IMG/VR virus record: IMGVR_UViG_3300023548_000002
Coordinates: 9,460-73,459 of that record
Reading direction: 5' to 3' (one strand)
Length of the DNA stretch: 64,000 nucleotides
DNA from: a virus
Under the pieces are notes generated by a model that did not search any database, was not told the origin of the DNA, and worked only from the letters and a program-made list of their open reading frames with translations. Each line of letters opens with the position of its first letter. Positions within the stretch are counted from its first letter, which is position 1. A program made the translations under genes and the position numbers. Positions 32,871 to 48,708 of the stretch are shown piece by piece.

Positions 32871-32871
32871 A

Positions 32872-34783: not shown

Positions 34784-34786
34784 ATC

Positions 34787-35059: not shown

Positions 35060-35333
35060 ATCCGTATTTTTCTTTTTGTTCTAAATATTCTAAATGCTCT
35101 AAGAGCACTTTCTGTACATCCCGATAACCCCCCTTTACATAAAAATTTCCTTGGGGAAGGATAATGATACAATAATCATCTCCACCTTCCTCCAAGGAAA
35201 AGTCATGAGTGAATGGTAATGTTACTTTGTAAGGTGTAGAGTATTTATCACTGGGATGCCCAGAATAAACAGTCATCTCTACTGTGTAATCACTTAGAAA
35301 TTTCATCTCTCTGTTTTTTAAGCTGTCTCTCAC
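35052..35333 (-). CDS. hypothetical protein
   Basis: ORF overlapping neighbours in the operon. Confidence 0.5.
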   Translation of the reverse strand: MRDSLKNREMKFLSDYTVEMTVYSGHPSDKYSTPYKVTLPFTHDFSLEEGGDDYCIIILPQGNFYVKGGYRDVQKVLLEHLEYLEQKEKYGYE

Positions 35334-35532
35334 AAAGATAGTGATTTACTTTTATACTACCAAAATATTTTAATCTTAAATTCCCTGCATCTTCGTGAGA
35401 TTCTACGTTAAACTCTTCCATAATTCGTTTTAATAACTTCCACTGAGACAGATACACCTTCTGTGCTTCCTGCTCTGTAATATTGTATTCTTCCGCTATT
35501 TTCCTTAGTATTTTCTTTACTATAATATTCAT
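35290..35532 (-). CDS. HU/IHF-like DNA-binding protein
   Basis: ILRKIAEEYNITEQEAQKV..LRLKYFGSIKV pattern. Confidence 0.65.
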   Translation of the reverse strand: MNIIVKKILRKIAEEYNITEQEAQKVYLSQWKLLKRIMEEFNVESHEDAGNLRLKYFGSIKVNHYLCERQLKKQRDEISK

Positions 35533-35744
35533 TCTTCTCTACTTATTAAATACCGTAGTCTCCATTTTCCTTCTACTGTCTTCTTTATCTGGTAATCTAT
35601 CTGGTAATCCATCTCATACTCATTATTCATATCTATTACCTCTTGCTCTACCTTCTCTAATACTCTCTCAGCTTCTTCTTTTGTCTTAAACTCTTTCTGT
35701 GAACTAAATAAATTCATATATTGTTTCTTATGTTTATATACCAC
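35529..35744 (-). CDS. hypothetical protein
   Basis: coupled ORF. Confidence 0.5.
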   Translation of the reverse strand: MVYKHKKQYMNLFSSQKEFKTKEEAERVLEKVEQEVIDMNNEYEMDYQIDYQIKKTVEGKWRLRYLISREE

Positions 35745-36013
35745 TCGTATTTTACAGGATTAAGTGATTCCGCCTGTATCTTATTTATCACCCCCTCTGA
35801 TGACTTCGCTCTAAATAATACGTCCTCTCTGTGCATATTTGTATCTAATACATAATCATTTGCTTCCTTTGTAATAGGATACAATATCATACTCTCATTA
35901 TCCTCCATTAACCCCCCATATACATACACATCCCCTACTACATAACTCCTAATGGTCGGAGTGAATATAATTATATCCCCCTTAATTAAATTCTCTGGTA
36001 AACTACAAGCCAT
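35714..36013 (-). CDS. hypothetical protein
   Basis: coupled ORF. Confidence 0.5.
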   Translation of the reverse strand: MACSLPENLIKGDIIIFTPTIRSYVVGDVYVYGGLMEDNESMILYPITKEANDYVLDTNMHREDVLFRAKSSEGVINKIQAESLNPVKYEWYINIRNNI

Positions 36014-36368
36014 TTCTCTTTATGTTAAATTGTAAAACTATTTCATCTGTATGAGGACATCGTATCTTTGGATTTAACCTGTCATTCTTTAATATCCCCC
36101 TACTCCTTAACTTACTTAATACATTATTTACAGTATTATAACTCGTCCCCAATCTATTAGCTATCTCATACCTATTCTCCTTGGTAAATATCAATAAACT
36201 TCTCCTATCCTCCTCAATAGCTCTATACTTATCATCATAATACATTATCTCCGCTAATACTTCTAATTCACGTGCACTCAACCCTAAATACCCATTTAAT
36301 ACTCTTAGGTACTGCTTGTAAAACTCTCTCCCCGTAGGTGCTACTGTCTCTTTACGTAATATCTTCAT
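36003..36368 (-). CDS. winged HTH DNA-binding protein
   Basis: LSARELEVL..EIANRLGTSYNTVNNVLSKLRSRGIL. Confidence 0.75.
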   Translation of the reverse strand: MKILRKETVAPTGREFYKQYLRVLNGYLGLSARELEVLAEIMYYDDKYRAIEEDRRSLLIFTKENRYEIANRLGTSYNTVNNVLSKLRSRGILKNDRLNPKIRCPHTDEIVLQFNIKRNGL

Positions 36369-36384
36369 ATTTAGTTATTTATGT

Positions 36385-36810
36385 TACTACCCATTTGGGT
36401 ATATTTTACCCCTAAGGTGGTAGCTCCCGCTATCACATAAGAATAAAAACCGTTCCGTTCTTATTCCCTCTTTCAAGTAGTTAGTCCTGACTTCGCTGGT
36501 GATGTCCACAGTTTCTTATGTTCCCTGCGTCACGACCCTCACGGGAGGCTTTCCCATGCCATGTAAAACCCGCCCGAAGCGTCCCAACTACTCTTATATC
36601 CCTATCGGAGAAAACTCCACCGCTATGTTCCTCTATTATTTCAAGAGCGCAGCTTACAATCCGACTTCTGGAGGGCTACCGCACCTTTTAGGCTCCTCAC
36701 CCCCGTACTTTGGTATAAAGAATAGTCCACCTTAGTAACCTTATAGCTACTAAGTAAATTCTTTATCATTATGTATCTGAACTATTCCCTTGGAAAACCA
36801 AAGGGGATGA
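36385..36810 (-). ncRNA. candidate structured RNA leader (or folded origin)
   Basis: GC-richer ORF-poor stretch with nested inverted repeats downstream of a consensus promoter. Confidence 0.35.
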
Positions 36811-36811
36811 G

Positions 36812-36842
36812 CAAATATACTAAATAATATTTATTATTCCAA
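36812..36842 (-). promoter_or_regulatory. Bacteroidota sigma-A type promoter (TTG-N20-TATATTTG)
   Basis: minus strand TTG at 36842-36840 and TATATTTG at 36819-36812. Confidence 0.7.
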
Positions 36843-37070
36843 GAAAAAATTAAATTATTTTTTAAAAATGTGCTTATAAGTAGGACAACTTGCTGTAAAT
36901 GAGTAAGATAGATTGTTGAAAAAAAAATTTATTTTTTTTTTTGAAAGGCATTCTGAAAATTTTTTGTGCACCCCGACGAGAGGGGACTACCCCCCAAGAC
37001 CACCCCAGGGTCGCATGCGCAGGGGAATATACCCCACATCCAACCTCGTAACCCATTAAATCTATATATT

Positions 37071-37277
37071 ATGAAAAAGTTCAAGTTAAAATTAGTCGAG
37101 GTTACGCAAAAAGAAGAGGTGGTAGTCGCCAAGTTCGTAATGTCTAACGACCTTGGTCGATGCTTCGTCTGGGGATTTTATGTGCCAGGTGCTACGCCGC
37201 CTGAACAGCTCACAGTCTCCGCTGACGCTATCATCGTCAACAACGGCTTCCGCCATCTCGACCCGACTAAGGCATGA
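37071..37277 (+). CDS. small early protein (68 aa)
   Basis: ATG at 37071 after an AT-rich leader; followed by a terminator. Confidence 0.65.
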   Translation: MKKFKLKLVEVTQKEEVVVAKFVMSNDLGRCFVWGFYVPGATPPEQLTVSADAIIVNNGFRHLDPTKA

Positions 37278-37281
37278 CGCC

Positions 37282-37303
37282 AGCCCCCTTCGGGGGCTTT
37301 TTT
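37282..37303 (+). terminator. intrinsic terminator
   Basis: agccccc-ttcg-gggggct stem with UUCG loop plus T tract. Confidence 0.85.
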
Positions 37304-37375
37304 CTCTTGTCAATTCCTGAATAAGTTCGATTTTTTATATATCTATCTTTTCTAACTTATTAATAAATTAATAAG

Positions 37376-37438
37376 GGATTACGCTTGGTAACTCATGGAT
37401 AAGTTAAAAAGGATTACGCACGGTAACGCATGGATAAG
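37376..37438. repeat. imperfect 28-bp tandem direct repeat
   Basis: ggattacgcttggtaactcatggataag / ggattacgcacggtaacgcatggataag, 35-bp period. Confidence 0.8.
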
Positions 37439-37655
37439 GGAAGAATGGTCGCTAAGCCCCTCCGCCCCTGAATACTCCGTCTCAGTCCTAACGAATAAGC
37501 CATTTCATACTTATTCATAGACCTTTTCTCTGCTCTATTTCCTTCCAAGAGAGCAAGAACTACTTGATATTAAGAATATTTCAACTATTTTCGCTAATAG
37601 TAAGGAAATAAAAACTTGTAAAAAATTAATTAATCACCAAAAAAACCTTAAAGCT

Positions 37656-38276
37656 ATGGGAACAACAGACTTAACAGCACTCGAAAAATTCATTGAAAAG
37701 TATTCTGATAAAGTTAATTGGAGTGAAATTTCAGAACATAAAAAACTATCGGAAGAGTTCATTGAGAAATATTCTGATAAAGTTAATTGGTATTGGATTT
37801 CACTCTATCAAAAATTATCAGAAGAATTTATTGATAAACATTCTGATAAAGTTGATTGGTATTGGATTTCAAAATATCAAGAATTATCAGAAGAATTTAT
37901 TGAAAATTACTCTAATAAAATTAATTGGAAACAGATTTCAAAATATCAAAAATTATCTGAAAAATTTATCGAGAAACATTCTGACAAAATTGATTGGAGA
38001 CAAATTTCAGAATATCAAAAATTGTCTGAAAATTTTATTGAAAAGTATAAAGACAAAATTGATTGGGAACATATTTCAGCTTACCAAAAATTATCTGAAG
38101 AATTTATTGAAAAACATTCAGATAAGGTTGATTGGTATTATATTTCAATGCACCAAGAATTATCTGAAAAATTCATTGAGAATCATTCTGATAAAGTTAA
38201 TTGGAAATGGATTTCAGCTTGCCAGAAATTATCAGAAGAATTCATTGAAAAGCATTCTGATAAATTAACTAAATAA
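37656..38276 (+). CDS. Trp-repeat protein 1 (8 x 23 aa)
   Basis: unit LSEEFIEKxSDKVDWxxISxxQK. Confidence 0.85.
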   Translation: MGTTDLTALEKFIEKYSDKVNWSEISEHKKLSEEFIEKYSDKVNWYWISLYQKLSEEFIDKHSDKVDWYWISKYQELSEEFIENYSNKINWKQISKYQKLSEKFIEKHSDKIDWRQISEYQKLSENFIEKYKDKIDWEHISAYQKLSEEFIEKHSDKVDWYYISMHQELSEKFIENHSDKVNWKWISACQKLSEEFIEKHSDKLTK

Positions 38277-38287
38277 AAATAAAAGCT

Positions 38288-38836
38288 ATGAAAACAACAG
38301 AATTAAAAAATCTCGAAGAATTTATTGAGAAACACCCCAATATAGTTAATTGGAGTGAAATTTCAAAATATCAAAAATTATCTGAAAAAATTATTGAAAA
38401 ACATTCTGATAAAGTTGATTGGTTTTGGATTTCGATTAAGCAAAAATTATCGGAGGAATTTATTGAAAAGTATTCTGATAAAGTTAATTGGTATTATATT
38501 TCAATTCACCAAGATTTATCTGAAAATTTCATTGAAAAGTATTCAAATAAAGTTGATTGGAGTGAAATTTCAGCTTACCAGAAACTATCGGAGGAATTTA
38601 TTGAAAAGTATTCAGATAAAGTTGATTGGTATTGGATTTCAGCTTACCAGAAATTATCGGAGGAATTCATTGAGAAGCATTCTGATAAAGTTGATTGGAA
38701 ATGGATTTCAGCTTGCCAGAAATTATCGGAGGAATTTATTGAGAATCATTCTGATAAGGTTGATTGGTATTGGATTTCAGCTTACCAGAAATTATCAGAG
38801 GAATTTATCGAAAAACATTCTGATAAACTCGGTTAA
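38288..38836 (+). CDS. Trp-repeat protein 2 (7 x 23 aa)
   Basis: same repeat unit. Confidence 0.85.
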   Translation: MKTTELKNLEEFIEKHPNIVNWSEISKYQKLSEKIIEKHSDKVDWFWISIKQKLSEEFIEKYSDKVNWYYISIHQDLSENFIEKYSNKVDWSEISAYQKLSEEFIEKYSDKVDWYWISAYQKLSEEFIEKHSDKVDWKWISACQKLSEEFIENHSDKVDWYWISAYQKLSEEFIEKHSDKLG

Positions 38837-38992
38837 ATATATAAAGGAGATTATTATCTCTGGTGGCAGCAGATAATTTCATTATCTGCCTTCAACAGTT
38901 AAAAGCTGTTGTCGTAACATAGTATTATTACTATGTATTGTGCGACTCTTCCTAACTTGGAAGAGTGATATATTAACCCAAAAATCATATAT

Positions 38993-39146
38993 TATGGCAC
39001 GCATTTTATTCATCGACCCTCGTACAGGGTTATTAACTTCATTCAATCCACGTAAAAAAGGGGATGAATGGGCAAAGAACCCAGACAAAGTTAAAGAAGA
39101 ATCTTTCAAAGCTCTGAAAGACCTCAAAAAGAAAAAAAGATATTAA
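38993..39146 (+). CDS. small basic hypothetical protein
   Basis: MARILFIDP.. after an A-rich leader; start approximate. Confidence 0.45.
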
Positions 39147-39162
39147 TTTAAATCTCAGAGCT

Positions 39163-39378
39163 ATGAAAAAAGTAAGAAACTTCAAAAACAAAAAGGGGTT
39201 CTTTCGTGTAAACCCCAGAAACGATTTACAAATGGTAAAAGAGGGATTACGTCCCCCTCGATTAACCCTTGACAGGACAATATTCAGAAAGACAGATGCC
39301 GAGCGGTATCTATTGAAACAATTAAAGAAAAATTGCCAAGGCATGATTGGTAGAACTATCAAATATCGTGCAATTTAA
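39163..39378 (+). CDS. small basic hypothetical protein
   Basis: 71-aa ORF. Confidence 0.5.
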   Translation: MKKVRNFKNKKGFFRVNPRNDLQMVKEGLRPPRLTLDRTIFRKTDAERYLLKQLKKNCQGMIGRTIKYRAI

Positions 39379-39658
39379 CTATGTTATTAACAGGGGAAAA
39401 GCACTGATACCCAAAATAAGTCCTAAGTGCATAGGCAGTATTAATATGATAGGTGTATTAGGAATAATAGGAATTATTGCTTTAGCAGTATTACGAGCTA
39501 CAGCACATCAATAGACTGAAAGCTCTCTGAAAGGACGCAGATGTGGAAAAACAGAATCCAATCTCACTGAGTAAGAGAGCAGTAGGGGAGAAGAGAGAGA
39601 ACTCGTTAAAACTCACAAATAAACTCTAATTAAAAACCAAACAAAAATCATTAAAACT

Positions 39659-40117
39659 ATGGGAAAATTAATCATGAAAGCCCATCCTGAAACAGGAGTA
39701 TTGGGCACTGAAGCAACTTTAAGCAATGGTAACAAAGGAGCATGGGTTCGAGTTGAGCAATCCACTGTTCAAATAAATAACGGCTTTATTGAAGAGCGAA
39801 AACGAGTAGCATTTGCTTTCGTTCCCGATGCCCTTAAAGCTCAAATATTGGACGGTAAGAAAGATGGTGATGAATTTCCTTTGGAAGGAAAAATTGTCAT
39901 CAAAGAAGCGTTACAACCTTTCTACGAAGGACAAGAACCCAAACGTGCAGGAGAAGATGGAGGTATCTGCGTAAAAAATGGTCGTCCTATCTACCGTCAA
40001 ATAGTATTTACCTCAAACATGGCGGAAGAAGATGAATTAATTCCCCACGATGCTATTGTGGAGAGTTTAGCATCTTTAGAAGCTACACAAGATACCAATT
40101 CTGCTGAAGAGCTGTAA
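39659..40117 (+). CDS. conserved Bacteroidota-phage protein, possibly SSB-like
   Basis: VRVEQ..PKRAGEDGGIC..GRPIYR motif, beta-rich, acidic tail. Confidence 0.5.
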   Translation: MGKLIMKAHPETGVLGTEATLSNGNKGAWVRVEQSTVQINNGFIEERKRVAFAFVPDALKAQILDGKKDGDEFPLEGKIVIKEALQPFYEGQEPKRAGEDGGICVKNGRPIYRQIVFTSNMAEEDELIPHDAIVESLASLEATQDTNSAEEL

Positions 40118-40123
40118 TTGGTC

Positions 40124-40167
40124 AGGGATTATGGTAATAAAGGGAGGTTCGATTCCTCCCAATCCCT
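40124..40167 (+). ncRNA. tRNA-like minihelix (acceptor stem plus T arm)
   Basis: agggatt/aatccct 7-bp stem and ggagg-ttcgatt-cctcc T arm; no D or anticodon arm. Confidence 0.55.
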
Positions 40168-40269
40168 CTAAATCCAAAAGTAACCCCATATAATGTATAG
40201 TGTTGTATTTCCAGAAAATTACCACAGAGTAGATGGGGTGAAATTGGATTTATACAGGTTTAATGGGTG

Positions 40270-40308
40270 AACCCATTAGCATCCAACGGATGTTAATGGG
40301 TTTTTTTT
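40270..40308 (+). terminator. intrinsic terminator
   Basis: aacccattagcatcc-aac-ggatgttaatgggtt plus T run. Confidence 0.85.
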
Positions 40309-40456
40309 GTTTTAAATTAAAATAAGATACATTCTACCCAACAATCTTTCACCATCCACCCAACACTCTATGAATTCCCCAACCTCTTTTCAGCAATAAC
40401 CCATTTTACACACATTTACAAAATTTATTTATTTAATATACTAAAAGCAATATACA

Positions 40457-40723
40457 ATGGAGAAACTGCACACACAACCAAAAGTAATAGCCTTTTCTTC
40501 CTCAATAGATGAAGAAAAACAATTCCTTTACACCAACTTTGAATTTATTGGAGAACCAGAAAATGGAGATGTCTTTGTAACAGAAAACCAGATAGAATTA
40601 TTAGAAGAATGGTTACAACAAGTAAGAGAAGAAGATAATAAAGTTATCGAAGAACTATTAACCACACTCATACACCATATAAAGAAAGAGAACTACAATC
40701 TTATTATTATTTATACATTTTAA
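40457..40723 (+). CDS. hypothetical protein
   Basis: 88-aa ORF. Confidence 0.55.
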   Translation: MEKLHTQPKVIAFSSSIDEEKQFLYTNFEFIGEPENGDVFVTENQIELLEEWLQQVREEDNKVIEELLTTLIHHIKKENYNLIIIYTF

Positions 40724-40728
40724 CAAGA

Positions 40729-40950
40729 ATGCTTATGGATATAAAAAGAGCAATAGAAATTCTCAAACAGTATAATAAATGGAGAACTGATAAAGAAATA
40801 CCATCAGTAAAAAAGATGCCACGTCCTTGTGAGATTACAGAAGCTATAAATACAGTCGTTGGAACATATACCCTCTTTGAATTCATGCGAGATAAAAATG
40901 GGGTAGCATTAACATTTGATGAACTTGGGGAAATATTGGGGAATAAATAG
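40729..40950 (+). CDS. hypothetical protein
   Basis: 73-aa ORF. Confidence 0.55.
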   Translation: MLMDIKRAIEILKQYNKWRTDKEIPSVKKMPRPCEITEAINTVVGTYTLFEFMRDKNGVALTFDELGEILGNK

Positions 40951-40958
40951 TATATTTG
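40951..40958 (+). promoter_or_regulatory. Bacteroidota-type -7 promoter element heading the small-ORF array
   Basis: TATATTTG in intergenic position. Confidence 0.55.
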
Positions 40959-41028
40959 CATTATAAGGGTTATGGTCATTATAGTGAATAGCGTAATTAT
41001 GTATTTAATAACTTAAAATTTAAATAAA

Positions 41029-41310
41029 ATGACAGAAGACGCAAAAAAAGTATGGAAAATAATGGAAGAAGATTTTGGCTGGAGTAATAAACCTAAGGAT
41101 TTTCATTTAGAATATTTTGAAGATATTATAAAAGCTACCAAGAAAGCATTAACTTTAAACGTAGTTAGCCGAAGTTTACTAAGTGAATATGATATAGGTA
41201 TAATTAGCGACTATGGTGTAGGGAATGTAGAATGGTGGCAAAATTATGTAAGAGAAGAAGTAGCGAGATGTAATGATTACTGGGTATCGCAATTACAAGA
41301 CGGGGATTAA
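41029..41310 (+). CDS. hypothetical cassette-like protein
   Basis: 93 aa; internal ALTLNVVSRS encodes a GTTA site. Confidence 0.6.
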   Translation: MTEDAKKVWKIMEEDFGWSNKPKDFHLEYFEDIIKATKKALTLNVVSRSLLSEYDIGIISDYGVGNVEWWQNYVREEVARCNDYWVSQLQDGD

Positions 41311-41396
41311 CTTAATGGCAAAGGCACGCTAACAAATTTGTATAAGCGTAATTGTGTATTTAATAACTTAAAATAATAACACAAAAATTTAGAATT

Positions 41397-41585
41397 ATGG
41401 GACAAATAATTTATCAAACAATTTACACCTGCGATTTATGCGGAAAAACTCCTGAAGATGGTGAGAAATTATGGCACATGGGAAATGAAGTATGGTGTGA
41501 AGAATGTTGTAATAAATCTTATTATGAAGACGATGAAGACGATGAAGATGACAATTGTGATGCAACCGAAAGTGATATTTATTAA
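41397..41585 (+). CDS. small Zn-finger protein with acidic tail
   Basis: CDLC..CEEC; DEDDEDD. Confidence 0.6.
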   Translation: MGQIIYQTIYTCDLCGKTPEDGEKLWHMGNEVWCEECCNKSYYEDDEDDEDDNCDATESDIY

Positions 41586-41648
41586 TTACGCATAACGAAT
41601 TTGTATAAGCGTAATTGTGTATTTAATAACTTAAAATAAAAAAAGATT

Positions 41649-41858
41649 ATGGCTGGAATTAATTACATAAACGAACAACAAGAAGGTGTAAGAGATTTGA
41701 AATTTAACCCAAATGCTGATATTCCAACAAAACTTGGGTATAGTTATTATCAATCGGATACAAATAATATTTGGTTTGTAAAAAGAACAAAAGACCAAAA
41801 AATTATAGCCTCATTTGTGGAAAAGAAACACTTAATTCTTTTCTTAAATGCACTATAA
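41649..41858 (+). CDS. hypothetical cassette-like protein
   Basis: stop codon is the TAA of a TAAC box. Confidence 0.6.
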   Translation: MAGINYINEQQEGVRDLKFNPNADIPTKLGYSYYQSDTNNIWFVKRTKDQKIIASFVEKKHLILFLNAL

Positions 41859-41991
41859 CGGATCGCGGCTATACTTAGTGCGTAATTTTAACATTAAATA
41901 TTAATTTAAAAACATAAATAAAAATGGGTGAAAATAAATTTTTAAACGAAAATGGTAGAGCATTAAGTATAGCCGATGTTATGAGCAGTGC
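41855..41991. mobile_element. attC-like recombination hairpin
   Basis: left arm ataac(gg)atc(gc)ggctatacttagtgc pairs with right arm gcattaagtatagccgatgttat, leaving extrahelical bases. Confidence 0.55.
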
Positions 41992-42226
41992 TTTAACCGA
42001 AAACGAAATTAAAATAGCACAAATTCAATCTGCCATAAAGAAACTTGGATATCAATGGCAAGAACATCAATTTAATGATGGATTTGATGAAGTCTTTATT
42101 GAAATAGCAAAAGATAAAGACCCTTCCGCAATTGATAGACACAAGGAAGATGCTGGATGGGGTAGGTTTGGCAGATTGACAGCTTGGACAATGGCTTTAG
42201 AGTGGGCGATTCAGCATTGCTCATAA
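41924..42226 (+). CDS. hypothetical cassette-like protein
   Basis: starts inside the hairpin loop, reads through GTTA, stops in TAAC. Confidence 0.6.
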   Translation: MGENKFLNENGRALSIADVMSSALTENEIKIAQIQSAIKKLGYQWQEHQFNDGFDEVFIEIAKDKDPSAIDRHKEDAGWGRFGRLTAWTMALEWAIQHCS

Positions 42227-42259
42227 CTCAGAATATCCGCAATAAAAAAATTTAATATT

Positions 42260-42496
42260 ATGAAAATAAAAGCAACAGTAGTAGAAATACTACAAGACAA
42301 CTATCAAGGTGGTTCTGGACTACCAATAAAAAGGGATATTATGGTTAATATACCAGACGATACAATAGCCATAAATATACTTGACGCAACTTATGTTAAT
42401 GTCAGGGAAAAAAGATTGAATAAAATGTGGGGAGATGGTTTAAAAAATACACCATACCTGTCAATAATTTCAGTTGAGATACTTCCCACCGCTTAA
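42260..42496 (+). CDS. hypothetical cassette-like protein
   Basis: flanked by tatccgcaat / attgcgcataac. Confidence 0.6.
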   Translation: MKIKATVVEILQDNYQGGSGLPIKRDIMVNIPDDTIAINILDATYVNVREKRLNKMWGDGLKNTPYLSIISVEILPTA

Positions 42497-42551
42497 TTGC
42501 GCATAACTATTTATATAAAAGTAATTTATTAACCAATAAATATAAAAAATT

Positions 42552-42809
42552 ATGGAGAGTAAATTAAGAAGATTAATAATGCTGTATGGAGCAGCCACAA
42601 TGATTAGCGATTTTGGTTATGAAACCACCTCTGAATATAAAGAATTGACTGACGAACAAAAAGCAGAAATAAAAGCCATTGCGGAACAAAAGAAATTAGA
42701 ACGCCTTAAAAAACAAGGTGTAAAAGAATATTTCTACGGAGATAAAGTTATTTATGCCTGTAATAAGAAAAATGCAGATAGAAAATCACGAAAGAAAGGT
42801 TACTTATAG
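42552..42809 (+). CDS. hypothetical protein
   Basis: 85 aa; IYACNKKNADRK motif. Confidence 0.6.
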   Translation: MESKLRRLIMLYGAATMISDFGYETTSEYKELTDEQKAEIKAIAEQKKLERLKKQGVKEYFYGDKVIYACNKKNADRKSRKKGYL

Positions 42810-42903
42810 CCCTTGTTATATTGCATTTTAATTCAACATAATTGTGCAGTGGGTTTTTATTTTTAATTATCCAAATTAGCTTTTTAATAAAAAATAAATT
42901 ATT

Positions 42904-43116
42904 ATGAAAAAAAAAATAGTAATTTTATTAGCAATACCTTTCCTAATTCTTTCCTGTAAGACAAAAGGAATTTTTAGAGAAATAGATACTGAATACAGTG
43001 GAAACACTTATGTAGTAGTTATTGATAGCTGTGAGTATTTATATATAGAAATGCACAATGTAAGATTATTTTCACATAAGGGGAACTGCAGATTTTGTAA
43101 AATACGAAATAATTGA
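42904..43116 (+). CDS. putative lipoprotein
   Basis: MKKK + hydrophobic + ILSC lipobox; IDSCEY..HKGNC. Confidence 0.65.
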   Translation: MKKKIVILLAIPFLILSCKTKGIFREIDTEYSGNTYVVVIDSCEYLYIEMHNVRLFSHKGNCRFCKIRNN

Positions 43117-43244
43117 TTAATTATAACAGGAATAAATATAATCTACAGAACTCAGAAATAATATTTATAGTTAAAGAAATAATTAGAAGAAAACGAAAAA
43201 CCAATAATGTGTTGTAGGGTTTACATTTAATGCAGAAGTAAAGC

Positions 43245-43460
43245 ATGGAACCATTTAAAGAATTTAACGACAATGATGTCTGCCCTATTTGTGGAGCAAG
43301 TGAAAATAAAGATATTGTTCTAATACAAATAGCAGGAACACAAAAAGCTAATATATCACAAGCTAAACAAGTGCATTTAGAGTGCTTAGTAAATACTGTG
43401 ATATATTATCCAAAAGAAAGAGTAATAGGTGCATATGCGCCATATAAAAAAGGAAAATAA
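43245..43460 (+). CDS. small Zn-binding protein
   Basis: CPIC..HLEC. Confidence 0.55.
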   Translation: MEPFKEFNDNDVCPICGASENKDIVLIQIAGTQKANISQAKQVHLECLVNTVIYYPKERVIGAYAPYKKGK

Positions 43461-43481
43461 CCACTTAAATTAATTAAAACT

Positions 43482-43883
43482 ATGAAAAAGTTATTAGTAT
43501 TAGCAGTAATAAGCTTATTTATTACAAGCACAGTAAAAAGTCAAGTAAAAACTTATACATTAAGTGATGTAACTGTAATTTTTACAGATTCATTAACCTC
43601 ACTGAAATCACTCAAATTTTATCCGAATCCAGTTACAGTAAAGATTGACGAAAAAGAAACTCTTGCGGTAGTAGATATAGAAAAAGCATTTTTAGCTATT
43701 TATCGCATTATAAATATTTATACATTTGAAGATAACTACGGACGTCCTTACACTGTATATCTAATGATAGATGTGGTGAATAAGAGTTCAGCGGCAGTAA
43801 AAGTTATTGATTCTTCTTATGTTATCTATACTATTGAGGATGTTATAATATCAGGACCTGTAAAAGAGTATTCAGTAAACTAA
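43482..43883 (+). CDS. secreted/periplasmic protein
   Basis: signal peptide ending VKS-Q (Bacteroidota N-terminal Gln rule). Confidence 0.6.
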   Translation: MKKLLVLAVISLFITSTVKSQVKTYTLSDVTVIFTDSLTSLKSLKFYPNPVTVKIDEKETLAVVDIEKAFLAIYRIINIYTFEDNYGRPYTVYLMIDVVNKSSAAVKVIDSSYVIYTIEDVIISGPVKEYSVN

Positions 43884-43912
43884 CTCTTTTTATCTGATAA
43901 ACTATAAGACAT

Positions 43913-43948
43913 ACTACATTCTGATTATGTAATCAGAATGTAGTTTTT
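43913..43948 (+). terminator. 15-bp perfect inverted repeat, probable terminator
   Basis: actacattctgatta-tg-taatcagaatgtagt followed by tttt. Confidence 0.7.
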
Positions 43949-43998
43949 ATAGAGTTTTATATTTTGTAAATAATTAATCAATTACTTAAAAGTTTAAA

Positions 43999-44484
43999 AT
44001 GATGGCAACCACAGAATTAAAAAAGCTCGAAGAATTAATTGAGCAAGACCCAAATAAAGTTGATTGGGAATGGATTTCAAAATATCAAGAACTATCCGAA
44101 GAATTTATTGAAAAATATTCCAATAAAATTTATTGGAGGGAAATTTCAAAGTATCAAAAATTATCAGAAGAATTTATTGAAAAACATTCTGACAAAGTTG
44201 ATTGGTATTGGATTTCAATGCACCAAAAATTATCTGAAAAGTTTATTGAAAAGCATAAAGATAAAGTTGATTGGAAACGTATATCAATGAAACAAGAACT
44301 ATCAGAAGAATTTATCGAAAAATATTCTGACAAAGTTGATTGGTATTGGATTTCAATAGTACAGAAATTATCCGAGGAATTTATTGAAAGGCATTCTAAT
44401 AAAGTTAATTGGGAATGGTTTGTAAAACTTCAAAAATTATCTGAAGAATTCATTGAGAAACATTCTGATAAATTAACTAAATAA
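43999..44484 (+). CDS. Trp-repeat protein 3 (6 x 23 aa)
   Basis: same repeat unit. Confidence 0.85.
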   Translation: MMATTELKKLEELIEQDPNKVDWEWISKYQELSEEFIEKYSNKIYWREISKYQKLSEEFIEKHSDKVDWYWISMHQKLSEKFIEKHKDKVDWKRISMKQELSEEFIEKYSDKVDWYWISIVQKLSEEFIERHSNKVNWEWFVKLQKLSEEFIEKHSDKLTK

Positions 44485-44495
44485 AAATAAAAGTT

Positions 44496-45323
44496 ATGAA
44501 AAAAGAAGAATTAACAAAGCTCGAAGAATTAATTGAGAAAGACCCCAATAAAGTTAATTGGTATTGGATTTCAATTCACCAAGAATTATCCGAAGAGTTT
44601 ATTGAAAAATACTCTGATAAAGTTGATTGGGAACGGATTTCAAAATATCAAAAATTATCTGAAAAATTTATTGAAAAGTATTCAGATAAAATTGATTGGT
44701 TTCTGATTTCAAAATACCAAAAATTATCTGAAAAATTTATTGAAAAGTATTCAGATAAAGTTGATTGGGAATGGATTTCAAAATATCAAAAATTATCGGA
44801 AGAATTTATTGAAAAGTATTCAGATAAAGTTGATTGGGAATGGATTTCAAAATATCAAAAATTATCTGAAGAATTTATTGAAAAGCATAAAGATAAAGTT
44901 AGTTGGTATTATATTTCAATTCACCAAAAATTATCGGAAGAATTTATTGAAAAACATAAAGATAGGGTTGATTGGTATTGGATTTCAGTTGAACAAAAAT
45001 TATCCGAAAAATTCATTGAGAAACATTCTGATAAAGTTGATTGGCATTGGATTTCAATATCCCAAGAATTATCTGAAAAATTTATTGAAAAGTATAAAGA
45101 TAAAGTTGATTGGGAGCAGATTTCAATACACCAAAAATTATCTGAAAAATTCATTGAAAAATACTCTGATAAAGTTGATTGGGAATGGATTTCAAAATAT
45201 CAAAAATTATCGGAAGAATTTATTGAAAAGCATAAAGATAAAGTTAATTGGTACTGGATTTCAATTTGGCAAGAACTTTCTGAAGAATTTATTGAAAAGC
45301 ATTCTGATAAATTAACTAAATAA
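44496..45323 (+). CDS. Trp-repeat protein 4 (11 x 23 aa)
   Basis: same repeat unit. Confidence 0.85.
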   Translation: MKKEELTKLEELIEKDPNKVNWYWISIHQELSEEFIEKYSDKVDWERISKYQKLSEKFIEKYSDKIDWFLISKYQKLSEKFIEKYSDKVDWEWISKYQKLSEEFIEKYSDKVDWEWISKYQKLSEEFIEKHKDKVSWYYISIHQKLSEEFIEKHKDRVDWYWISVEQKLSEKFIEKHSDKVDWHWISISQELSEKFIEKYKDKVDWEQISIHQKLSEKFIEKYSDKVDWEWISKYQKLSEEFIEKHKDKVNWYWISIWQELSEEFIEKHSDKLTK

Positions 45324-45334
45324 AAATAAAAGCT

Positions 45335-45820
45335 ATGAAAACAACAGAATTAACAAAGCTCGAAGAATTTATTGAGAAATACCCCAATATAGTTAATTGG
45401 AGTGAAATTTCAAAATACCAAGAATTATCTGAAAAATTCATTGAAAAGTATTCTGATAAAGTTGATTGGAAATGGATTTCAAAATACCAAGACTTATCTG
45501 AAAAATTTATTGAGAAACATTCTGATAAAGTCGATTGGAAACAGATTTCAATCTACCAAGAATTATCTGAAGAATTCATTGAAAAACATTCTGATAAACT
45601 TGATTGGGGACAGATTTCAGTCTACCAGAAATTATCTGAAAAATTCATTGAAAAGTATTCCGATAAAGTTGATTGGATTTGGATTTCAATTTACCAGAAA
45701 CTATCTGAAAAATTCATTGAAAAGTATTCCGATAAAGTTAATTGGATTTGGATTTCAATTTACCAGAAACTATCTGAAAAATTCATTGAGAAACATTCTG
45801 ATAAATTAACTAAATTTTAA
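45335..45820 (+). CDS. Trp-repeat protein 5 (6 x 23 aa)
   Basis: same repeat unit. Confidence 0.85.
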   Translation: MKTTELTKLEEFIEKYPNIVNWSEISKYQELSEKFIEKYSDKVDWKWISKYQDLSEKFIEKHSDKVDWKQISIYQELSEEFIEKHSDKLDWGQISVYQKLSEKFIEKYSDKVDWIWISIYQKLSEKFIEKYSDKVNWIWISIYQKLSEKFIEKHSDKLTKF

Positions 45821-45834
45821 TAAAAATAAAAGCT

Positions 45835-46455
45835 ATGAAAAAAGAAGAATTAACAAAGCTCGAAGAATTAATTGAGAAAGACCCCAATATAGTTGATTGG
45901 AGTGAAATTTCAAAATACCAAAAATTATCTGAAGAATTTATTGAAAAGCATTCTGATAAAGTTGATTGGGAATGGATTTCAAAATTCCAAGAATTATCTG
46001 AAGAGTTCATTGAAAAGCATTCTGATAAAGTTGATTGGAGTAAAATTTCTGAATACCAAAAATTATCTGAAGAATTTATTGAAAAACATAAAGATAGGGT
46101 TGATTGGTATTGGATTTCAGTTGAACAAAAATTATCCGAAAAATTCATTGAGAAACATTCTGATAAAGTTGATTGGCATTGGATTTCAGTTGAACAAAAA
46201 TTATCCGAAAAATTCATTGAGAAACATTCTGATAAAGTTGATTGGCATTGGATTTCAATATCCCAAGAATTATCTGAAAAATTTATTGAAAAGTATTCAG
46301 ATAAAGTTGATTGGGAGCAGATTTCAAAATATCAAAAATTATCGGAAGAATTTATTGAAAAGCATAAAGATAAAGTTAATTGGTACTGGATTTCAATTTG
46401 GCAAGAACTTTCTGAAGAATTTATTGAAAAGCATTCCGATAAATTAACTAAATAA
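45835..46455 (+). CDS. Trp-repeat protein 6 (8 x 23 aa)
   Basis: same repeat unit. Confidence 0.85.
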   Translation: MKKEELTKLEELIEKDPNIVDWSEISKYQKLSEEFIEKHSDKVDWEWISKFQELSEEFIEKHSDKVDWSKISEYQKLSEEFIEKHKDRVDWYWISVEQKLSEKFIEKHSDKVDWHWISVEQKLSEKFIEKHSDKVDWHWISISQELSEKFIEKYSDKVDWEQISKYQKLSEEFIEKHKDKVNWYWISIWQELSEEFIEKHSDKLTK

Positions 46456-46466
46456 AAATAAAAGCT

Positions 46467-46775
46467 ATGAAAAAAATTAAAGTTGACCCTGACAAAGTTA
46501 TTAAAATCGAGCCAAGAATGATTAAAGAGAATTTCGCCAATACAAAAAAAGCTATGAAAACAATTAAATTAAAAACTGAAAAAGATGTTAAGAAATTCCT
46601 AAACTCAAACGAGTTAGGATTTAACAAGAATAACGTAATTATAAATGGAATTAAACCCATTCTTGGATTTAATGTATCGAATAAGCACATAACATATTAT
46701 AGTTCCGAAAAGCAAGCAACACAAGTATTAACTTCCCGTAATGGGTATTTTATTTTAGAGAATTATGAAATTTGA
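46467..46775 (+). CDS. hypothetical protein
   Basis: uses the same aaataaaagctATG leader as the repeat genes. Confidence 0.5.
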   Translation: MKKIKVDPDKVIKIEPRMIKENFANTKKAMKTIKLKTEKDVKKFLNSNELGFNKNNVIINGIKPILGFNVSNKHITYYSSEKQATQVLTSRNGYFILENYEI

Positions 46776-47121
46776 TGAAATAAGTTTTCCTTTGTATATT
46801 GATAAGAAGGAACCTGAAATTATACGAGACAGTAAACATAATATCTTCCTAAAACTACCAAGTAATTATGGAGACATTGCATTTGATATTATGTCTTTCT
46901 TTAATCTAAGAAAAGAGTGGATAGATGGTGAAAGAATTTCAATGATTGACTCCATAGATAAAGAACAAGTATTAAGAGACGAATATAAATATCATTTACT
47001 TGGATACAAATCTTATAATGACTTTAAATTAAAAGAAGGGAAAGATTTAGTTCCTTGTAAAAGCTGTGGAGTATATTATTGGAAAGACTGCCACCCTAAT
47101 TGTGATTGTGAATTAAGCTAA
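46765..47121 (+). CDS. hypothetical protein with C-terminal Cys cluster
   Basis: CKSC..CHPNCDC. Confidence 0.55.
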   Translation: MKFDEISFPLYIDKKEPEIIRDSKHNIFLKLPSNYGDIAFDIMSFFNLRKEWIDGERISMIDSIDKEQVLRDEYKYHLLGYKSYNDFKLKEGKDLVPCKSCGVYYWKDCHPNCDCELS

Positions 47122-47276
47122 AAATTTTAATTAAGACTTATAGAGAAAATAATAGGGAAAGAACAATATTCTTGGAGAAGAATGCAAAAATTATATGCTT
47201 ACTTGGAAATAATAACAAGGAACTTAGAATTCTCATAATATTTAACTTATTTTTAACTTATTAAAACTTACAAGTT

Positions 47277-47417
47277 ATGTTAAATAAAAGATTGTTAAAA
47301 CGGATAGAAGAAATATTTCAAGAAAAATTACAAGTTAAAACAGGTTGGGGAAGGAATGAAATATTAGAATTATACTACCAATCTGTAAATGAAGCTTTAA
47401 TGGAATTATTAGAATAA
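47277..47417 (+). CDS. small hypothetical protein (below ORF-track cutoff)
   Basis: MLNKRLLKRIEE..KTGWGRNE read manually. Confidence 0.45.
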   Translation: MLNKRLLKRIEEIFQEKLQVKTGWGRNEILELYYQSVNEALMELLE

Positions 47418-47433
47418 CTAAAACTAACTAATT

Positions 47434-47634
47434 ATGTTATCACAAGATTATACACTATGTACTGGATGTCCCTTAAAAGATAACTGTGAAAGATATGTAT
47501 CTTATGAACATTTATCTAAGCAAAAAGATATGATGTATATAGTCGTCTCTGTATTTATGGATATTCCTTACGATGAAAAAAGAGGAGAGTGTGAGTATTT
47601 AATTCCTATAAAAAATAAGAATAACACGTCTTAA
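47434..47634 (+). CDS. small Cys-rich protein
   Basis: CTGCPLKDNCERY..CEY. Confidence 0.6.
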   Translation: MLSQDYTLCTGCPLKDNCERYVSYEHLSKQKDMMYIVVSVFMDIPYDEKRGECEYLIPIKNKNNTS

Positions 47635-47677
47635 AATATAAAAAGCTAATAGTTATTAACAAATTAACCGAGTAATT

Positions 47678-47854
47678 ATGGACAGTAATACATTCAAAGA
47701 GCTTAATCCTATTGGAACAGAAGTAGCATATCACGGTAGAGATATTAAAATTATTTCTTACACTACTGACGGATATGCTATTATTTTGGATTATGCTACA
47801 GATGAAGAGAGAGTAATTTCTATTGAAGAATTAATAGAACAAAACTATGATTAA
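47678..47854 (+). CDS. small hypothetical protein (below ORF-track cutoff)
   Basis: MDSNTFKELNPIGTEV.. read manually. Confidence 0.45.
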   Translation: MDSNTFKELNPIGTEVAYHGRDIKIISYTTDGYAIILDYATDEERVISIEELIEQNYD

Positions 47855-47943
47855 TTTCTTTTCAATTATTTTTATTCCTACGGTAGTAATAACATTAATG
47901 CTGTTATTACTATGGGAATACATTAAATATAAATGGAATACAA

Positions 47944-48180
47944 ATGACGAAACCACACGTAACAAAAGAAGAACTTGAGCGTTTTGAGAAGTTAAAAAAG
48001 AAATATGACCTTCCTGTATTAAATCAATTAATAGATGATTATTTAGAAGGTAAAGATTATGGGAAGAATATCTTTATTATTCTTTATCAAGGAGTATCCT
48101 GGTATGATATAATGTCTATTTCTAAAGATTTCTCATATTGGTGGAGATTAAGTTATGATTTTGCAAAAGAAACATTATGA
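47944..48180 (+). CDS. hypothetical protein
   Basis: 78-aa ORF. Confidence 0.5.
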   Translation: MTKPHVTKEELERFEKLKKKYDLPVLNQLIDDYLEGKDYGKNIFIILYQGVSWYDIMSISKDFSYWWRLSYDFAKETL

Positions 48181-48267
48181 CTATACTTGGAAAATATAAA
48201 GCGTACTTAAACTTCTTAAAAGCGGTCAATTTCCTTAAAAGAAAATATACAAATAATATATATCTAA

Positions 48268-48597
48268 TTGAAACCAAGAAAAATCATGACATTTATTTAC
48301 AATTCGGAATATGTTATTCCAGTAAGTTACTTTAATGATACTGTAACATACACTTCCGATATAATTACGAAAAAACAATTTGAAGAAACAAAAATAAGTG
48401 AATTAAGAGACTATGACACTAAGAAAAAACTTAATAAAACTCAACAAAAAGCTCTAAAAATATATTTAGATTACATAAACCTATTAAGTTTCTTAGAAGA
48501 TGATGTACTTATTCATACAACATTAAGGAAAGTATTGGAGTATCAACAAGACCAAAAATTTTCAAGAGTAATTGATTATATTTTAGAAAGATTATAG
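48268..48597 (+). CDS. hypothetical protein
   Basis: ORF; probable ATG a few codons in. Confidence 0.5.
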   Translation: MKPRKIMTFIYNSEYVIPVSYFNDTVTYTSDIITKKQFEETKISELRDYDTKKKLNKTQQKALKIYLDYINLLSFLEDDVLIHTTLRKVLEYQQDQKFSRVIDYILERL

Positions 48598-48708
48598 TAT
48601 GAAAAAGAAACATTAATATTGTCTGAAATTGCTAAATTAGCTAAAGAAGTAGAGTTTAAAATTTCAATAAAATAGAAATGACAAAAGTTAATTATTATTC
48701 AGGTAAAG

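What the first reader, a model, noticed from the sequence alone, without database searches (positions are those of the whole stretch)
37656..46455. Six-gene family of 23-aa Trp-repeat solenoids with a hypervariable four-residue code
Seen: 46 repeat units (8,7,6,11,6,8) in two early-region clusters. The scaffold LSE[EK]FIEK[HY][SK]DK[VI][DN]W is nearly invariant, while W-xx-IS-xx-Q varies radically. Gene 4 reads YW/IH, ER/KY, FL/KY, EW/KY, EW/KY, YY/IH, YW/VE, HW/IS, EQ/IH, EW/KY, YW/IW; gene 1 reads SE/EH, YW/LY, YW/KY, KQ/KY, RQ/EY, EH/AY, YY/MH, KW/AC. All genes have matched N- and C-caps. The variable residues are rich in Tyr, Trp and charged side chains, as in antibody or DARPin paratopes. 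Known: the unit resembles the entomopoxvirus tryptophan-repeat family, of unknown function. Inference: a combinatorial binder repertoire (VLR/TALE/PPR-like logic) aimed at host defence proteins or nucleic acids.
Basis: partly seen in the sequence, partly recalled or inferred. Interest (0 to 1): 0.85.

Follow-up and report, generated by a model that had tools for sequence, protein, structure and literature searches.

The report
Tryptophan-repeat solenoid genes in crAss-like phage
Six neighbouring genes of an uncultured crAss-like phage encode small helical repeat proteins of the named but unstudied viral "tryptophan repeat" family, which probably act as protein binders, so this is a new member of a known kind.

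Summary
Six + strand genes carry 8, 7, 6, 11, 6 and 8 full 23-residue units, 46 in all. The frame is nearly fixed and four columns (16, 17, 20, 21) are much more variable than the rest.

The genes belong to the already named "tryptophan repeat gene family": PHROG 3532, and 59% identity to entomopoxvirus MSV027. The family is very large (9153 cluster representatives), has no real Pfam model, and gave no solved-structure match. This scan found it before on other DNA.

The host genome is a crAss-like phage. None of the 26 phage records holding the family is crAss-like.

AlphaFold gives a confident two-helix solenoid. The four variable residues sit at i, i+1, i+4, i+5 of helix B.

Relatives fuse the array to RING, IBR and phosphatase domains, which fits a recognition module.

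A TALE/PPR-like nucleic-acid code is not supported: there are 34 codes in 46 units and the proteins are acidic. I found no reverse transcriptase and no sign of ongoing hypermutation. New codes do arise by unequal recombination.

Target and timing are unknown. Unit counts are not independently verified.

The parts
37656..38276 (+). Trp-repeat gene 1: 206 aa, 8 full units plus C-cap
   Evidence: ORF; unit register; PHROG 3532 at E 1.4e-77
38288..38836 (+). Trp-repeat gene 2: 182 aa, 7 units plus C-cap; 11 nt after gene 1
   Evidence: PHROG 3532 at E 4.2e-69
43999..44484 (+). Trp-repeat gene 3: 161 aa, 6 units plus C-cap; first gene of cluster 2
   Evidence: PHROG 3532 at E 3.4e-69
44496..45323 (+). 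Trp-repeat gene 4: 275 aa, 11 units plus C-cap; the protein that was modelled
   Evidence: PHROG 3532 at E 1.4e-128; AlphaFold2 pLDDT 95.5, pTM 0.83
45335..45820 (+). Trp-repeat gene 5: 161 aa, 6 units plus C-cap
   Evidence: PHROG 3532 at E 5.8e-67
45835..46455 (+). Trp-repeat gene 6: 206 aa, 8 units plus C-cap. Its last 276 nt equal gene 4 with 3 mismatches and one unit fewer. Units 5 and 7 are recombinant hybrids.
   Evidence: PHROG 3532 at E 1.3e-69
37282..37298 (+). Terminator-like GC hairpin followed by a T run, upstream of cluster 1
   Evidence: consensus scan only
43913..43944 (.). Perfect 14-pair hairpin, terminator-like on both strands, 55 nt before gene 3
   Evidence: consensus scan only
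37616..37632 (+). 17-nt motif TTGTAAAWAATTAATYA upstream of gene 1. A second exact copy lies at 43964-43980 upstream of gene 3. It may be a shared promoter or a remnant of segment duplication.
   Evidence: The motif was derived from these two sites, and 9 of 100 shuffles gave at least 3 matches at 2 mismatches, so the evidence is weak.

Best explanation
The six genes are an accessory multigene family of small, soluble, acidic alpha-solenoid proteins of the viral tryptophan-repeat family, carried by a crAss-like phage.

Each 23-residue unit forms two short helices. The fixed residues are L1, F5, I6, W15, I18, S19 and Q22, and they build the core. Residues 16, 17, 20 and 21 lie on the opposite side of helix B, so unit after unit they line up as an aromatic and charged stripe.

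The most likely role is a recognition module that binds proteins, of the host or of the phage. Each paralogue would have its own specificity. The genes would be expressed from the start of the non-structural arm.

Diversity came from two sources:
- substitutions concentrated in the four codons;
- unequal recombination between units, which changes unit number and re-pairs the two variable dipeptides.

Shown here: membership, anatomy, variability pattern, predicted fold, recombinant units, fusions in relatives.

Inferred: that the stripe is a binding surface, that the ligand is a protein, and early expression.
For: Membership:
- PHROG 3532 at E 1e-67 to 1e-128 for 6 of 6 proteins.
- Foldseek against BFVD gave 68 matches at E <= 0.001. 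These include MSV027 'tryptophan repeat gene family protein' (59% identity, TM 0.82, rmsd 1.1), AMV029 and phage G gp558-563.
- tblastn matched Bacillus phage BpSp genes annotated with that name.

Fold:
- AlphaFold2 gave pLDDT 95.5 and pTM 0.83. Helix A spans positions 3-8 and helix B positions 15-21 in every unit.
- The variable residues are therefore i, i+1, i+4 and i+5 of helix B, opposite W15/I18/S19/Q22 by helical periodicity.

Variability:
- The four columns are the most variable in the window.
- Columns 16, 17 and 20 are the three most variable across 1123 units from 239 relatives, at 3.85, 3.87 and 3.73 bits.

Selection:
- Scaffold pN/pS is 0.25, so the genes are under purifying selection.
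- In the 121 unit pairs with 3-5 scaffold differences, variable-codon pN is 0.447 against scaffold pS 0.245.
- In the 13 closest pairs, 36 of 51 nucleotide differences lie in the 12 variable nucleotides.

Modularity:
- Relatives carry the array next to a RING finger (P0149), an IBR (P0156) or a DSP-type phosphatase (P0310).
- A passage of PMC7728225 describes AMV254 as an F-box plus tryptophan-repeat protein.
- Many relatives add a conserved C-terminal domain of about 110 residues.

Recombination:
- Gene 6 unit 5 is the left part of gene 4 unit 8 joined to the right part of unit 7.
- Gene 6 unit 7 is the left part of gene 4 unit 9 joined to the right part of unit 10.

Accessory status:
- 0 of 15 TerL-related loci hold such a gene. 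Only 4 of them reach far enough upstream to be informative.
Against: - No ligand is known for any member. The papers I could search call the family 'of unknown function'.
- Over all unit pairs, pN/pS at the four columns is 0.64. Against the mean scaffold pS it is about 1.1, which is compatible with weak constraint rather than diversifying selection.
- The excess in close pairs is conditioned on scaffold similarity, and scaffold homogenisation by gene conversion could also produce it.
- Trp in 26 of 46 units at column 17 and Tyr in 25 of 46 at column 21 could be structural, for example an aromatic ladder.
- Columns 16-17 and 20-21 are correlated, so the code is not free.
- I could not read model coordinates. 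The single stripe is inferred from the secondary structure, not measured.
- The recent gene 4 / gene 6 duplicate shows no change in the variable codons of its shared units.
- Of 7 non-synonymous differences seen in the second population's contig fragments, only 2 are in the four columns. Those fragments may be cross-mapped.
- RNA-library contigs on genes 4 and 6 have low depth and may be DNA carry-over.
Confidence: 0.55

Rival explanations
1. Self-assembling or architectural proteins. The solenoids would close into rings or stack through their matched caps. The outer residues would then vary simply because they are weakly constrained surface, and there would be no specific targets.
For: - The N- and C-caps are conserved in all six genes.
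- pN/pS at the four columns is about 1 against scaffold pS.
- The aromatic majority at columns 17 and 21 could be inter-repeat packing.
- Earlier notes of this scan on giant-virus members proposed ring closure. These are unchecked leads.
Against: - Unit number here runs from 6 to 11, so one closed geometry cannot fit all six.
- Fusions to RING, IBR and phosphatase domains point to an adaptor role.
- Columns 16, 17 and 20 are the most variable family-wide. That is expected for a recognition face more than for a packing face.
Confidence: 0.15
2. Nucleic-acid readers with a per-repeat code, like TALE or PPR proteins. Each unit would contact one base through its variable residues.
For: - The repeats are regular, with two pairs of variable residues per unit.
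- Aromatic residues can stack on bases (general knowledge).
Against: - There are 34 distinct four-residue codes among 46 units, not a small alphabet.
- All six proteins are acidic, with pI 5.08-5.75 and net charge -3 to -16.
- No nucleic-acid-binding Pfam family matched above its threshold with a passing stretch.
- No PDB fold match to TALE, PUF or PPR. There were 0 matches at E <= 0.001 among the 26 listed.
Confidence: 0.06
3. Acidic decoys (DNA mimics) that block restriction or other DNA-binding defence enzymes early in infection, as Ocr or ArdA do.
For: - The proteins have net negative charge, a rigid repetitive shape, and sit first on the non-structural arm.
Against: - The charge is modest, about -1 per unit, and basic residues are interleaved in the scaffold.
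- The variable aromatic stripe has no role in mimicry.
- The same family is abundant in viruses of eukaryotes and is fused to ubiquitin-ligase domains.
Confidence: 0.07
4. The fine structure of the arrays (unit number and order, and the hybrid units of gene 6) is partly an assembly artefact of short reads. The family itself would still be real.
For: - Logan contigs of both DNA runs end at the borders of both clusters.
- Genes 4 and 6 share 276 nt with only 3 mismatches, longer than most short reads.
- In-register mis-joins would keep the frame open.
Against: - Fragments of the repeats occur unchanged in a second study's run, for example 38045-38229 and 45452-45652 with 0 other letters.
- All six genes have complete caps and identical spacers.
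- Unitig breaks at repeated 31-mers are expected and do not show an error.
Confidence: 0.17

Closest known systems
Tryptophan repeat gene family of entomopoxviruses (MSV027, MSV029, MSV205, AMV029; AMV254 with an F-box)
   Same: - The same 23-residue unit.
- 59% identity and TM 0.82 to the MSV027 model.
- Multi-copy paralogues in one virus genome.
- Function unknown.
   Different: - The host here is a bacterium-infecting crAss-like phage.
- The window proteins are bare arrays with caps, without an F-box or other domain.
- The F-box statement comes from a passage of PMC7728225. I did not see the original entomopoxvirus genome papers.
Jumbo-phage copies: Bacillus phage vB_BpuM-BpSp gp053-gp058, Bacillus phage G gp556-563, Listeria phage LPJP1 (PHROG 3532)
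   Same: - The same PHROG.
- Tandem clusters of short paralogues a few nucleotides apart, right after a strand switch.
- 36, 32 and 29 matching places in those records.
   Different: - Those phages have 200-500 kb genomes and infect Firmicutes.
- This one is a phage of roughly 97 kb: the record is 73,459 bases and CheckV estimates 76% completeness.
- It belongs to the crAss-like group, which is not represented among the 26 phage records with a match.
Giant-virus homologues (Pithovirus, Marseillevirus, Megaviridae, Orpheovirus)
   Same: - The same predicted fold.
- The nearest ESM-Atlas clusters are almost all Nucleocytoviricota.
   Different: - They are often longer, or fused to other domains.
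- The host is eukaryotic.
Ankyrin-repeat / PRANC host-range families of chordopoxviruses, and designed ankyrin binders (comparison recalled, not tested)
   Same: They work alike: a fixed helical repeat frame, variable surface positions, expansion as a multigene family, and fusion to ubiquitin-ligase adaptors.
   Different: - There is no sequence or fold match. No ankyrin family was among the Pfam matches, and there was no PDB match at E <= 0.001.
- The unit is 23 residues, not 33.
TALE and PPR repeat code readers
   Same: Tandem helical repeats with a few hypervariable residues per unit.
   Different: - No small code alphabet.
- Acidic proteins.
- No fold match.
Diversity-generating retroelement targets
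   Same: Variation is focused on a few codons of a binding scaffold in a phage.
   Different: - No reverse transcriptase in the 73-kb record.
- Recent duplicates carry unchanged variable codons.

Membership tests
Tryptophan repeat gene family / PHROG 3532 | Significant similarity to named members | tested here: met
   PHROG 3532 at E 1e-67 to 1e-128 for 6 of 6 proteins. MSV027 at 59% identity, E 1.2e-30. BpSp genes annotated with the family name at 49.8% identity, E 4e-42.
Tryptophan repeat gene family / PHROG 3532 | Tandem units of about 23 residues with an invariant Trp | tested here: met
   46 of 46 units have W at column 15, with exact 23-residue spacing.
Tryptophan repeat gene family / PHROG 3532 | Occurs as several paralogues in a large DNA virus | tested here: met
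   Six copies in the record, and no others in its 73,459 bases.
TALE/PPR-like nucleic-acid code readers | A small discrete set of specificity residues, one unit per base | tested here: not met
   34 distinct codes in 46 units; the commonest (EW/KY) occurs 4 times.
TALE/PPR-like nucleic-acid code readers | A surface suited to binding a polyanion | tested here: not met
   pI 5.08-5.75, net charge -3 to -16.
TALE/PPR-like nucleic-acid code readers | Sequence-specific nucleic-acid binding | not testable with these tools
   Needs SELEX or gel shift assays.
Diversity-generating retroelement target | A reverse transcriptase and a template repeat nearby | tested here: not met
   PF00078 gave 0 matches in the record, while the control genomes rang. 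The record is 76% complete, so the missing quarter was not seen.
Ankyrin / HEAT / TPR / LRV helical repeats (Pfam) | A match to the family profile above its threshold | tested here: not met
   No such family appears. PF14013 exceeds its whole-protein cut-off in genes 4 and 6 (30.6 and 31.7 bits against 27) but has no passing stretch, so I judge it a repeat-summed artefact. Some Atlas neighbour clusters carry HEAT_PBS or LRV_2 on 11-31% of members, which is only a lead.
Known anti-defence or defence proteins (PADLOC) | A match to a model | tested here: not met
   Only E 7e-4 to 4e-3 with 0 passing stretches.

The most novel reading that the evidence does not exclude
The tryptophan repeat is a pan-viral programmable binder scaffold with a solenoid fold not yet seen in any solved structure. 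It is shared by phages, now including a crAss-like phage, and by giant viruses of eukaryotes. In this phage the six paralogues would each capture a different host protein at the onset of infection. New specificities would be made by unequal recombination that re-pairs the two variable dipeptides of neighbouring units, as caught in gene 6.
Probability: 0.25. Interest if true: 0.75.

Novelty: new member of a known kind. Interest (0 to 1): 0.42.

Why it matters
The family is very large: 9153 cluster representatives at E <= 0.001 in 1.84 billion, and 4646 at E <= 1e-10. It spans phages, poxviruses and giant viruses.

Even so, it has no real Pfam model, no solved relative by sequence or by fold, and no known function in the papers I could search.

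A compact, idealised 23-residue solenoid with a defined variable stripe would be useful in two ways. It is a candidate key to how large viruses take hold of host proteins, and it is a possible natural scaffold for binder engineering.

This window adds three things:
- a small, tractable six-gene set in a crAss-like phage;
- a clear map of fixed against variable positions;
- two recombinant units that show how arrays change.

It does not add a function.

Tried and rejected
Profile and sequence searches that gave nothing usable:
- The Pfam scan of the six proteins gave only weak, repeat-summed matches. PF14013 MT0933_antitox reached 30.6 and 31.7 bits with no passing stretch. I rejected it as an artefact.
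- NCBIfam gave nothing for gene 4.
- PADLOC gave only weak matches.
- A sequence search of the PDB gave only E >= 0.016, to engineered OspA repeats.
- Foldseek against the PDB gave 0 of 26 listed matches at E <= 0.001.
- Rfam at gathering thresholds gave 0 matches in the window. No tRNA genes were found.

Searches for close relatives of this phage:
- megablast of 30000-50000 against phage records: no match;
- protein 39659-40114 in viral contigs and in metagenome contigs: none;
- spacer and cap DNA patterns in viral contigs and metagenome contigs: none;
- gene 6 in viral contigs: one distant jumbo-phage locus, L001.
For this reason no orthologue-based site test of selection could be run.

Other attempts:
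- Homodimer prediction of gene 3 (two copies) gave no verdict, with score 0.00 against a mark of 0.32. It is not evidence either way.
- Ring closure, suggested by earlier notes of this scan, could not be examined because model coordinates are not readable here.
- The C-terminal domain of relatives (P0008) had no Pfam, NCBIfam or PDB sequence match. Foldseek gave 0 matches at E <= 0.001. The weak top rows were ADP-ribosyltransferase-like folds, which is a lead only.
- Parts of the repeat genes without contig cover in runs X2-X4 say nothing.
- The sigma-70-type promoter scan found fewer sites than shuffles did (48 against a mean of 61.8) and is uninformative for this host group.
- The long ORFs in other frames of the repeats (for example 37693-38268 and 45810-46217 on the minus strand) are by-products of periodicity and were not treated as genes.
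- Supplementary tables of the phage G paper, which may hold expression or proteome data for gp556-563, were closed.

Full report
**What is there.**
The window has six + strand open frames in two clusters. Cluster 1 is 37656-38276 and 38288-38836. Cluster 2 is 43999-44484, 44496-45323, 45335-45820 and 45835-46455. Cut in register, they hold 8, 7, 6, 11, 6 and 8 full 23-residue units, 46 in all.

Each gene starts with a short leader and a slightly different first unit, such as KLEELIEKDPNKV.W. Each ends with the half unit LSEEFIEKHSDKL plus one to three residues. Tandem Repeats Finder sees the 69-nt period over both clusters.

Genes within a cluster are 11-14 nt apart and share the same spacer.

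**Fixed and variable columns.**
Amino-acid entropy is 2.73, 2.05, 2.37 and 2.30 bits at columns 16, 17, 20 and 21, and at most 1.28 bits elsewhere. E3, I6 and W15 are invariant in 46 of 46 units. Of the 184 residues in the four columns, 70 are Tyr or Trp and 51 are Glu, Lys or Arg (counts).

The columns are not free. Column 17 is Trp in 26 of 46 units and column 21 is Tyr in 25 of 46. Columns 16-17 and 20-21 carry significant mutual information: 0 of 5000 and 1 of 5000 shuffles reached the observed value. Part of this reflects shared descent of duplicated units. There are 34 distinct four-residue codes among the 46 units.

**Genome context.**
The window is bases 9460-73459 of a 73,459-base virus record that CheckV rates 76% complete. 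The six copies are the only ones in it.

The minus-strand arm (1-36400) encodes the large terminase, portal, major head protein and a GroEL-like chaperonin. The + strand arm begins with the repeat genes and goes on to a DNA polymerase and a helicase.

The terminase is 42-45% identical to those of IAS virus and the cr85_1, cr108_1, cr111_1 and cr126_1 phages. The matching records are dominated by Bacteroides, Flavobacterium, Cellulophaga and crAss names, so this is a crAss-like phage.

Small genes around and between the clusters are orphans: 1 of 10 matched any PHROG. Position at the head of the non-structural arm suggests early expression, but timing was not measured.

**Family.**
All six proteins match PHROG 3532 (function unknown) at E 1e-67 to 1e-128. 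tblastn against 50,697 phage records finds 26 records. They include Listeria phage LPJP1 (29 places), Bacillus phage vB_BpuM-BpSp (36 places, annotated 'putative tryptophan repeat gene family protein'), Bacillus phage G (32), Clostridium phage c-st (11) and jumbo phages of enterobacteria and Xanthomonas. None is crAss-like. In BpSp, gp053-gp058 form a tandem cluster right after a strand switch, the same layout as here.

An exhaustive HMMER search of 1.84 billion cluster representatives gave 9153 hits at E <= 0.001, 4646 at <= 1e-10 and 566 at <= 1e-30. A word-indexed search gave 2798 hits among the 8000 candidates scored. The nearest ESM-Atlas clusters are almost all Nucleocytoviricota.

The papers I could search use the family name only as an annotation label. 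The passages I read in PMC12484599 say 'of unknown function'. The LPJP1 paper does not mention the genes: the word 'tryptophan' occurs 0 times in its main text. This scan has met the family before on other DNA, in two phage windows and two giant-virus windows.

**Structure.**
AlphaFold2 on gene 4, with a 35-row alignment (A1), gave mean pLDDT 95.5 and pTM 0.83. Every unit shows the same pattern: a six-residue helix over positions 3-8 and a seven-residue helix over positions 15-21.

On helix B the fixed residues W15, I18, S19 and Q22 fall on one side. The variable residues 16, 17, 20 and 21 (i, i+1, i+4, i+5) fall on the other. I could not read coordinates, so the continuous outer stripe is inferred from periodicity, not measured.

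Foldseek found no solved structure at E <= 0.001 (0 of 26 listed; best TM 0.27). It found 68 viral models at E <= 0.001. These include MSV027 (59% identity, TM 0.82, rmsd 1.1), AMV029, MSV205, phage G gp558-563, and Pithovirus, Marseillevirus, Megaviridae and Orpheovirus proteins. Sequence search of the PDB gave nothing below E 0.016.

**Is the variability selected?**
Over all 1035 unit pairs, the scaffold shows pN 0.114 and pS 0.45, a ratio of 0.25. That is clear purifying selection. The four columns show pN 0.499 and pS 0.784, a ratio of 0.64, or about 1.1 against scaffold pS. Taken whole, this is no proof of diversifying selection, and the variable codons are saturated.

Binned by scaffold distance, variable-codon pN exceeds scaffold pS in the closest pairs. 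It is 0.183 against 0.032 in 13 pairs with 0-2 scaffold differences, and 0.447 against 0.245 in 121 pairs with 3-5. In those 13 pairs, 36 of 51 nucleotide differences fall in the 12 variable nucleotides (binomial 9e-17). The pairs are not independent, and choosing them by scaffold similarity biases the test.

The pattern is bimodal. Variable codons are either identical or almost wholly different. For example, gene 4 units 3 and 4 differ at 1 scaffold nucleotide and 6 variable-codon nucleotides. Substitution under selection after duplication would explain this. So would scaffold homogenisation by gene conversion with the four codons kept distinct. I cannot separate the two.

Nothing suggests a targeted mutator. 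No reverse transcriptase is present in the record. The most recent duplicate, the last 276 nt of gene 6 against gene 4, has 3 mismatches and none in the variable codons of the shared units.

**Recombination.**
Gene 6 differs from gene 4 by unit-scale events. Its unit 5 (HW/VE) is identical to gene 4 unit 8 over nucleotides 1-57 and to unit 7 over nucleotides 46-69. That is the product expected from an unequal crossover between the two variable dipeptides. Its unit 7 (EQ/KY) joins the left of gene 4 unit 9 to the right of unit 10, removing one unit. Unequal recombination thus changes unit number and creates new four-residue combinations from old halves. If the assembly is wrong in this nearly identical stretch, these hybrids could be artefacts.

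**Independent sightings.**
Two DNA runs from two studies hold the stretch: a microbial-mat metagenome with 0.90 of sampled words, and a hydrothermal-vent metagenome with 0.73. In the second, the unique flanks differ by 5 letters in 712 bases, 8 in 2567 and 4 in 2479, so this is the same phage.

In both runs the short-read contigs stop at the edges of both clusters, and only fragments lie inside. That is expected for unitigs at repeats. It does mean the unit order is unverified.

Thirteen differences listed inside the repeat genes split into 6 synonymous and 7 non-synonymous. Two of the 7 are in the four columns, and cross-mapping between units is possible.

Two RNA libraries of the first sample contain small low-depth contigs on genes 4 and 6 and on other genes of the arm. 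This is a weak hint of expression, because DNA may be present in such libraries.

**What the relatives say about function.**
Across 1123 units from 239 fetched relatives, columns 16, 17 and 20 are the three most variable (3.85, 3.87 and 3.73 bits). Column 21 is lower at 2.80 bits and mostly aromatic. The unit-picking pattern fixed the alphabets of columns 1-3, 5, 6, 15, 18, 19 and 22, so only the other columns are comparable.

Longer relatives place the array beside a C-terminal RING finger (P0149), an IBR (P0156), an N-terminal dual-specificity phosphatase (P0310) or WG beta repeats (P0242). A passage of PMC7728225 states that AMV254 combines an F-box with tryptophan repeats.

Many near-length relatives add a conserved C-terminal domain of about 110 residues. 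It folds confidently, with pLDDT 94.2. It has no family or solved match, and its weak Foldseek rows are ADP-ribosyltransferase-like (0 matches at E <= 0.001).

Arrays bolted onto catalytic or ligase-adaptor domains are what one expects of a recognition module. The window's own proteins are bare arrays. If they bind, they would act by occupancy, blocking or bridging, rather than by catalysis.

**Rivals.**
- A nucleic-acid code is unlikely: 34 codes in 46 units, and acidic proteins with pI 5.08-5.75 and net charge -3 to -16.
- A DNA-mimic decoy is possible, but the charge is modest and the family thrives in eukaryotic viruses.
- A purely architectural role with an unconstrained surface cannot be excluded. 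A homodimer prediction gave no verdict.

**Accessory status.**
Fifteen viral contigs encode a related terminase at 48-70% identity. None holds a tryptophan-repeat gene. Only L009, L010, L011 and L012 extend far enough upstream to cover the position of cluster 1, and the three closest (L002-L004) do not. The GroEL gene next to the terminase is shared by seven of them at E <= 1e-30.

**Verdict.**
The finding is a new member of a known, named, unstudied kind. The modest additions are the crAss-like host genome, the column map and the recombinant units.

Noticed in passing
window 33140-34783 (- strand); L002, L004, L003, L011, L012, L007, L013: A GroEL-like chaperonin gene (PHROG 5725, E 3e-117) sits next to the large terminase of this crAss-like phage. 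It is conserved at that place in seven related viral contigs at 38-52% identity.
   Followed up: partly
window 36400-37650: The divergent intergenic region is patchily GC-rich. It contains a 68-residue ORF (37073-37277) that ends at a strong terminator-like hairpin (37282-37298), and a 35-nt direct repeat (37363-37438). An RNA-library contig lies at 37310-37507. No Rfam family matched.
   Followed up: partly
relatives P0008, P0001, P0033, P0037, P0021 and others (alignment A2): Many relatives carry a conserved C-terminal domain of about 110 residues after the repeat array. It has no Pfam, NCBIfam or PDB sequence match and gives a confident model (pLDDT 94.2). Its weak, non-significant Foldseek rows are ADP-ribosyltransferase-like.
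   Followed up: partly
window 37001-47000: Nearly the same phage occurs in metagenomes of two habitats and two studies, a microbial mat and a hydrothermal vent. The unique flanks differ by about 0.2-0.7%.
   Followed up: partly
window 37693-38268, 38355-38876, 44740-45315, 45402-45809, 45893-46447 (+); 45810-46217 (-): Long open frames run through the repeat genes in a second frame and on the opposite strand. A stop-free unit repeated in tandem explains them, and nothing suggests they are genes.
   Followed up: no
window 41397-41585: A small Cys-rich ORF (CxxC...CxxC) with an acidic Asp/Glu tail encoded by a 9-nt repeat (41524-41548). Contigs of both DNA runs have loose ends at 41520 and 41552, probably chance sharing of the simple repeat.
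   Followed up: no
L001 (IMG/VR contig of 409,147 bases): A jumbo-phage contig holds at least three tryptophan-repeat genes within 12.5 kb, 42-53% identical to gene 4.
   Followed up: no
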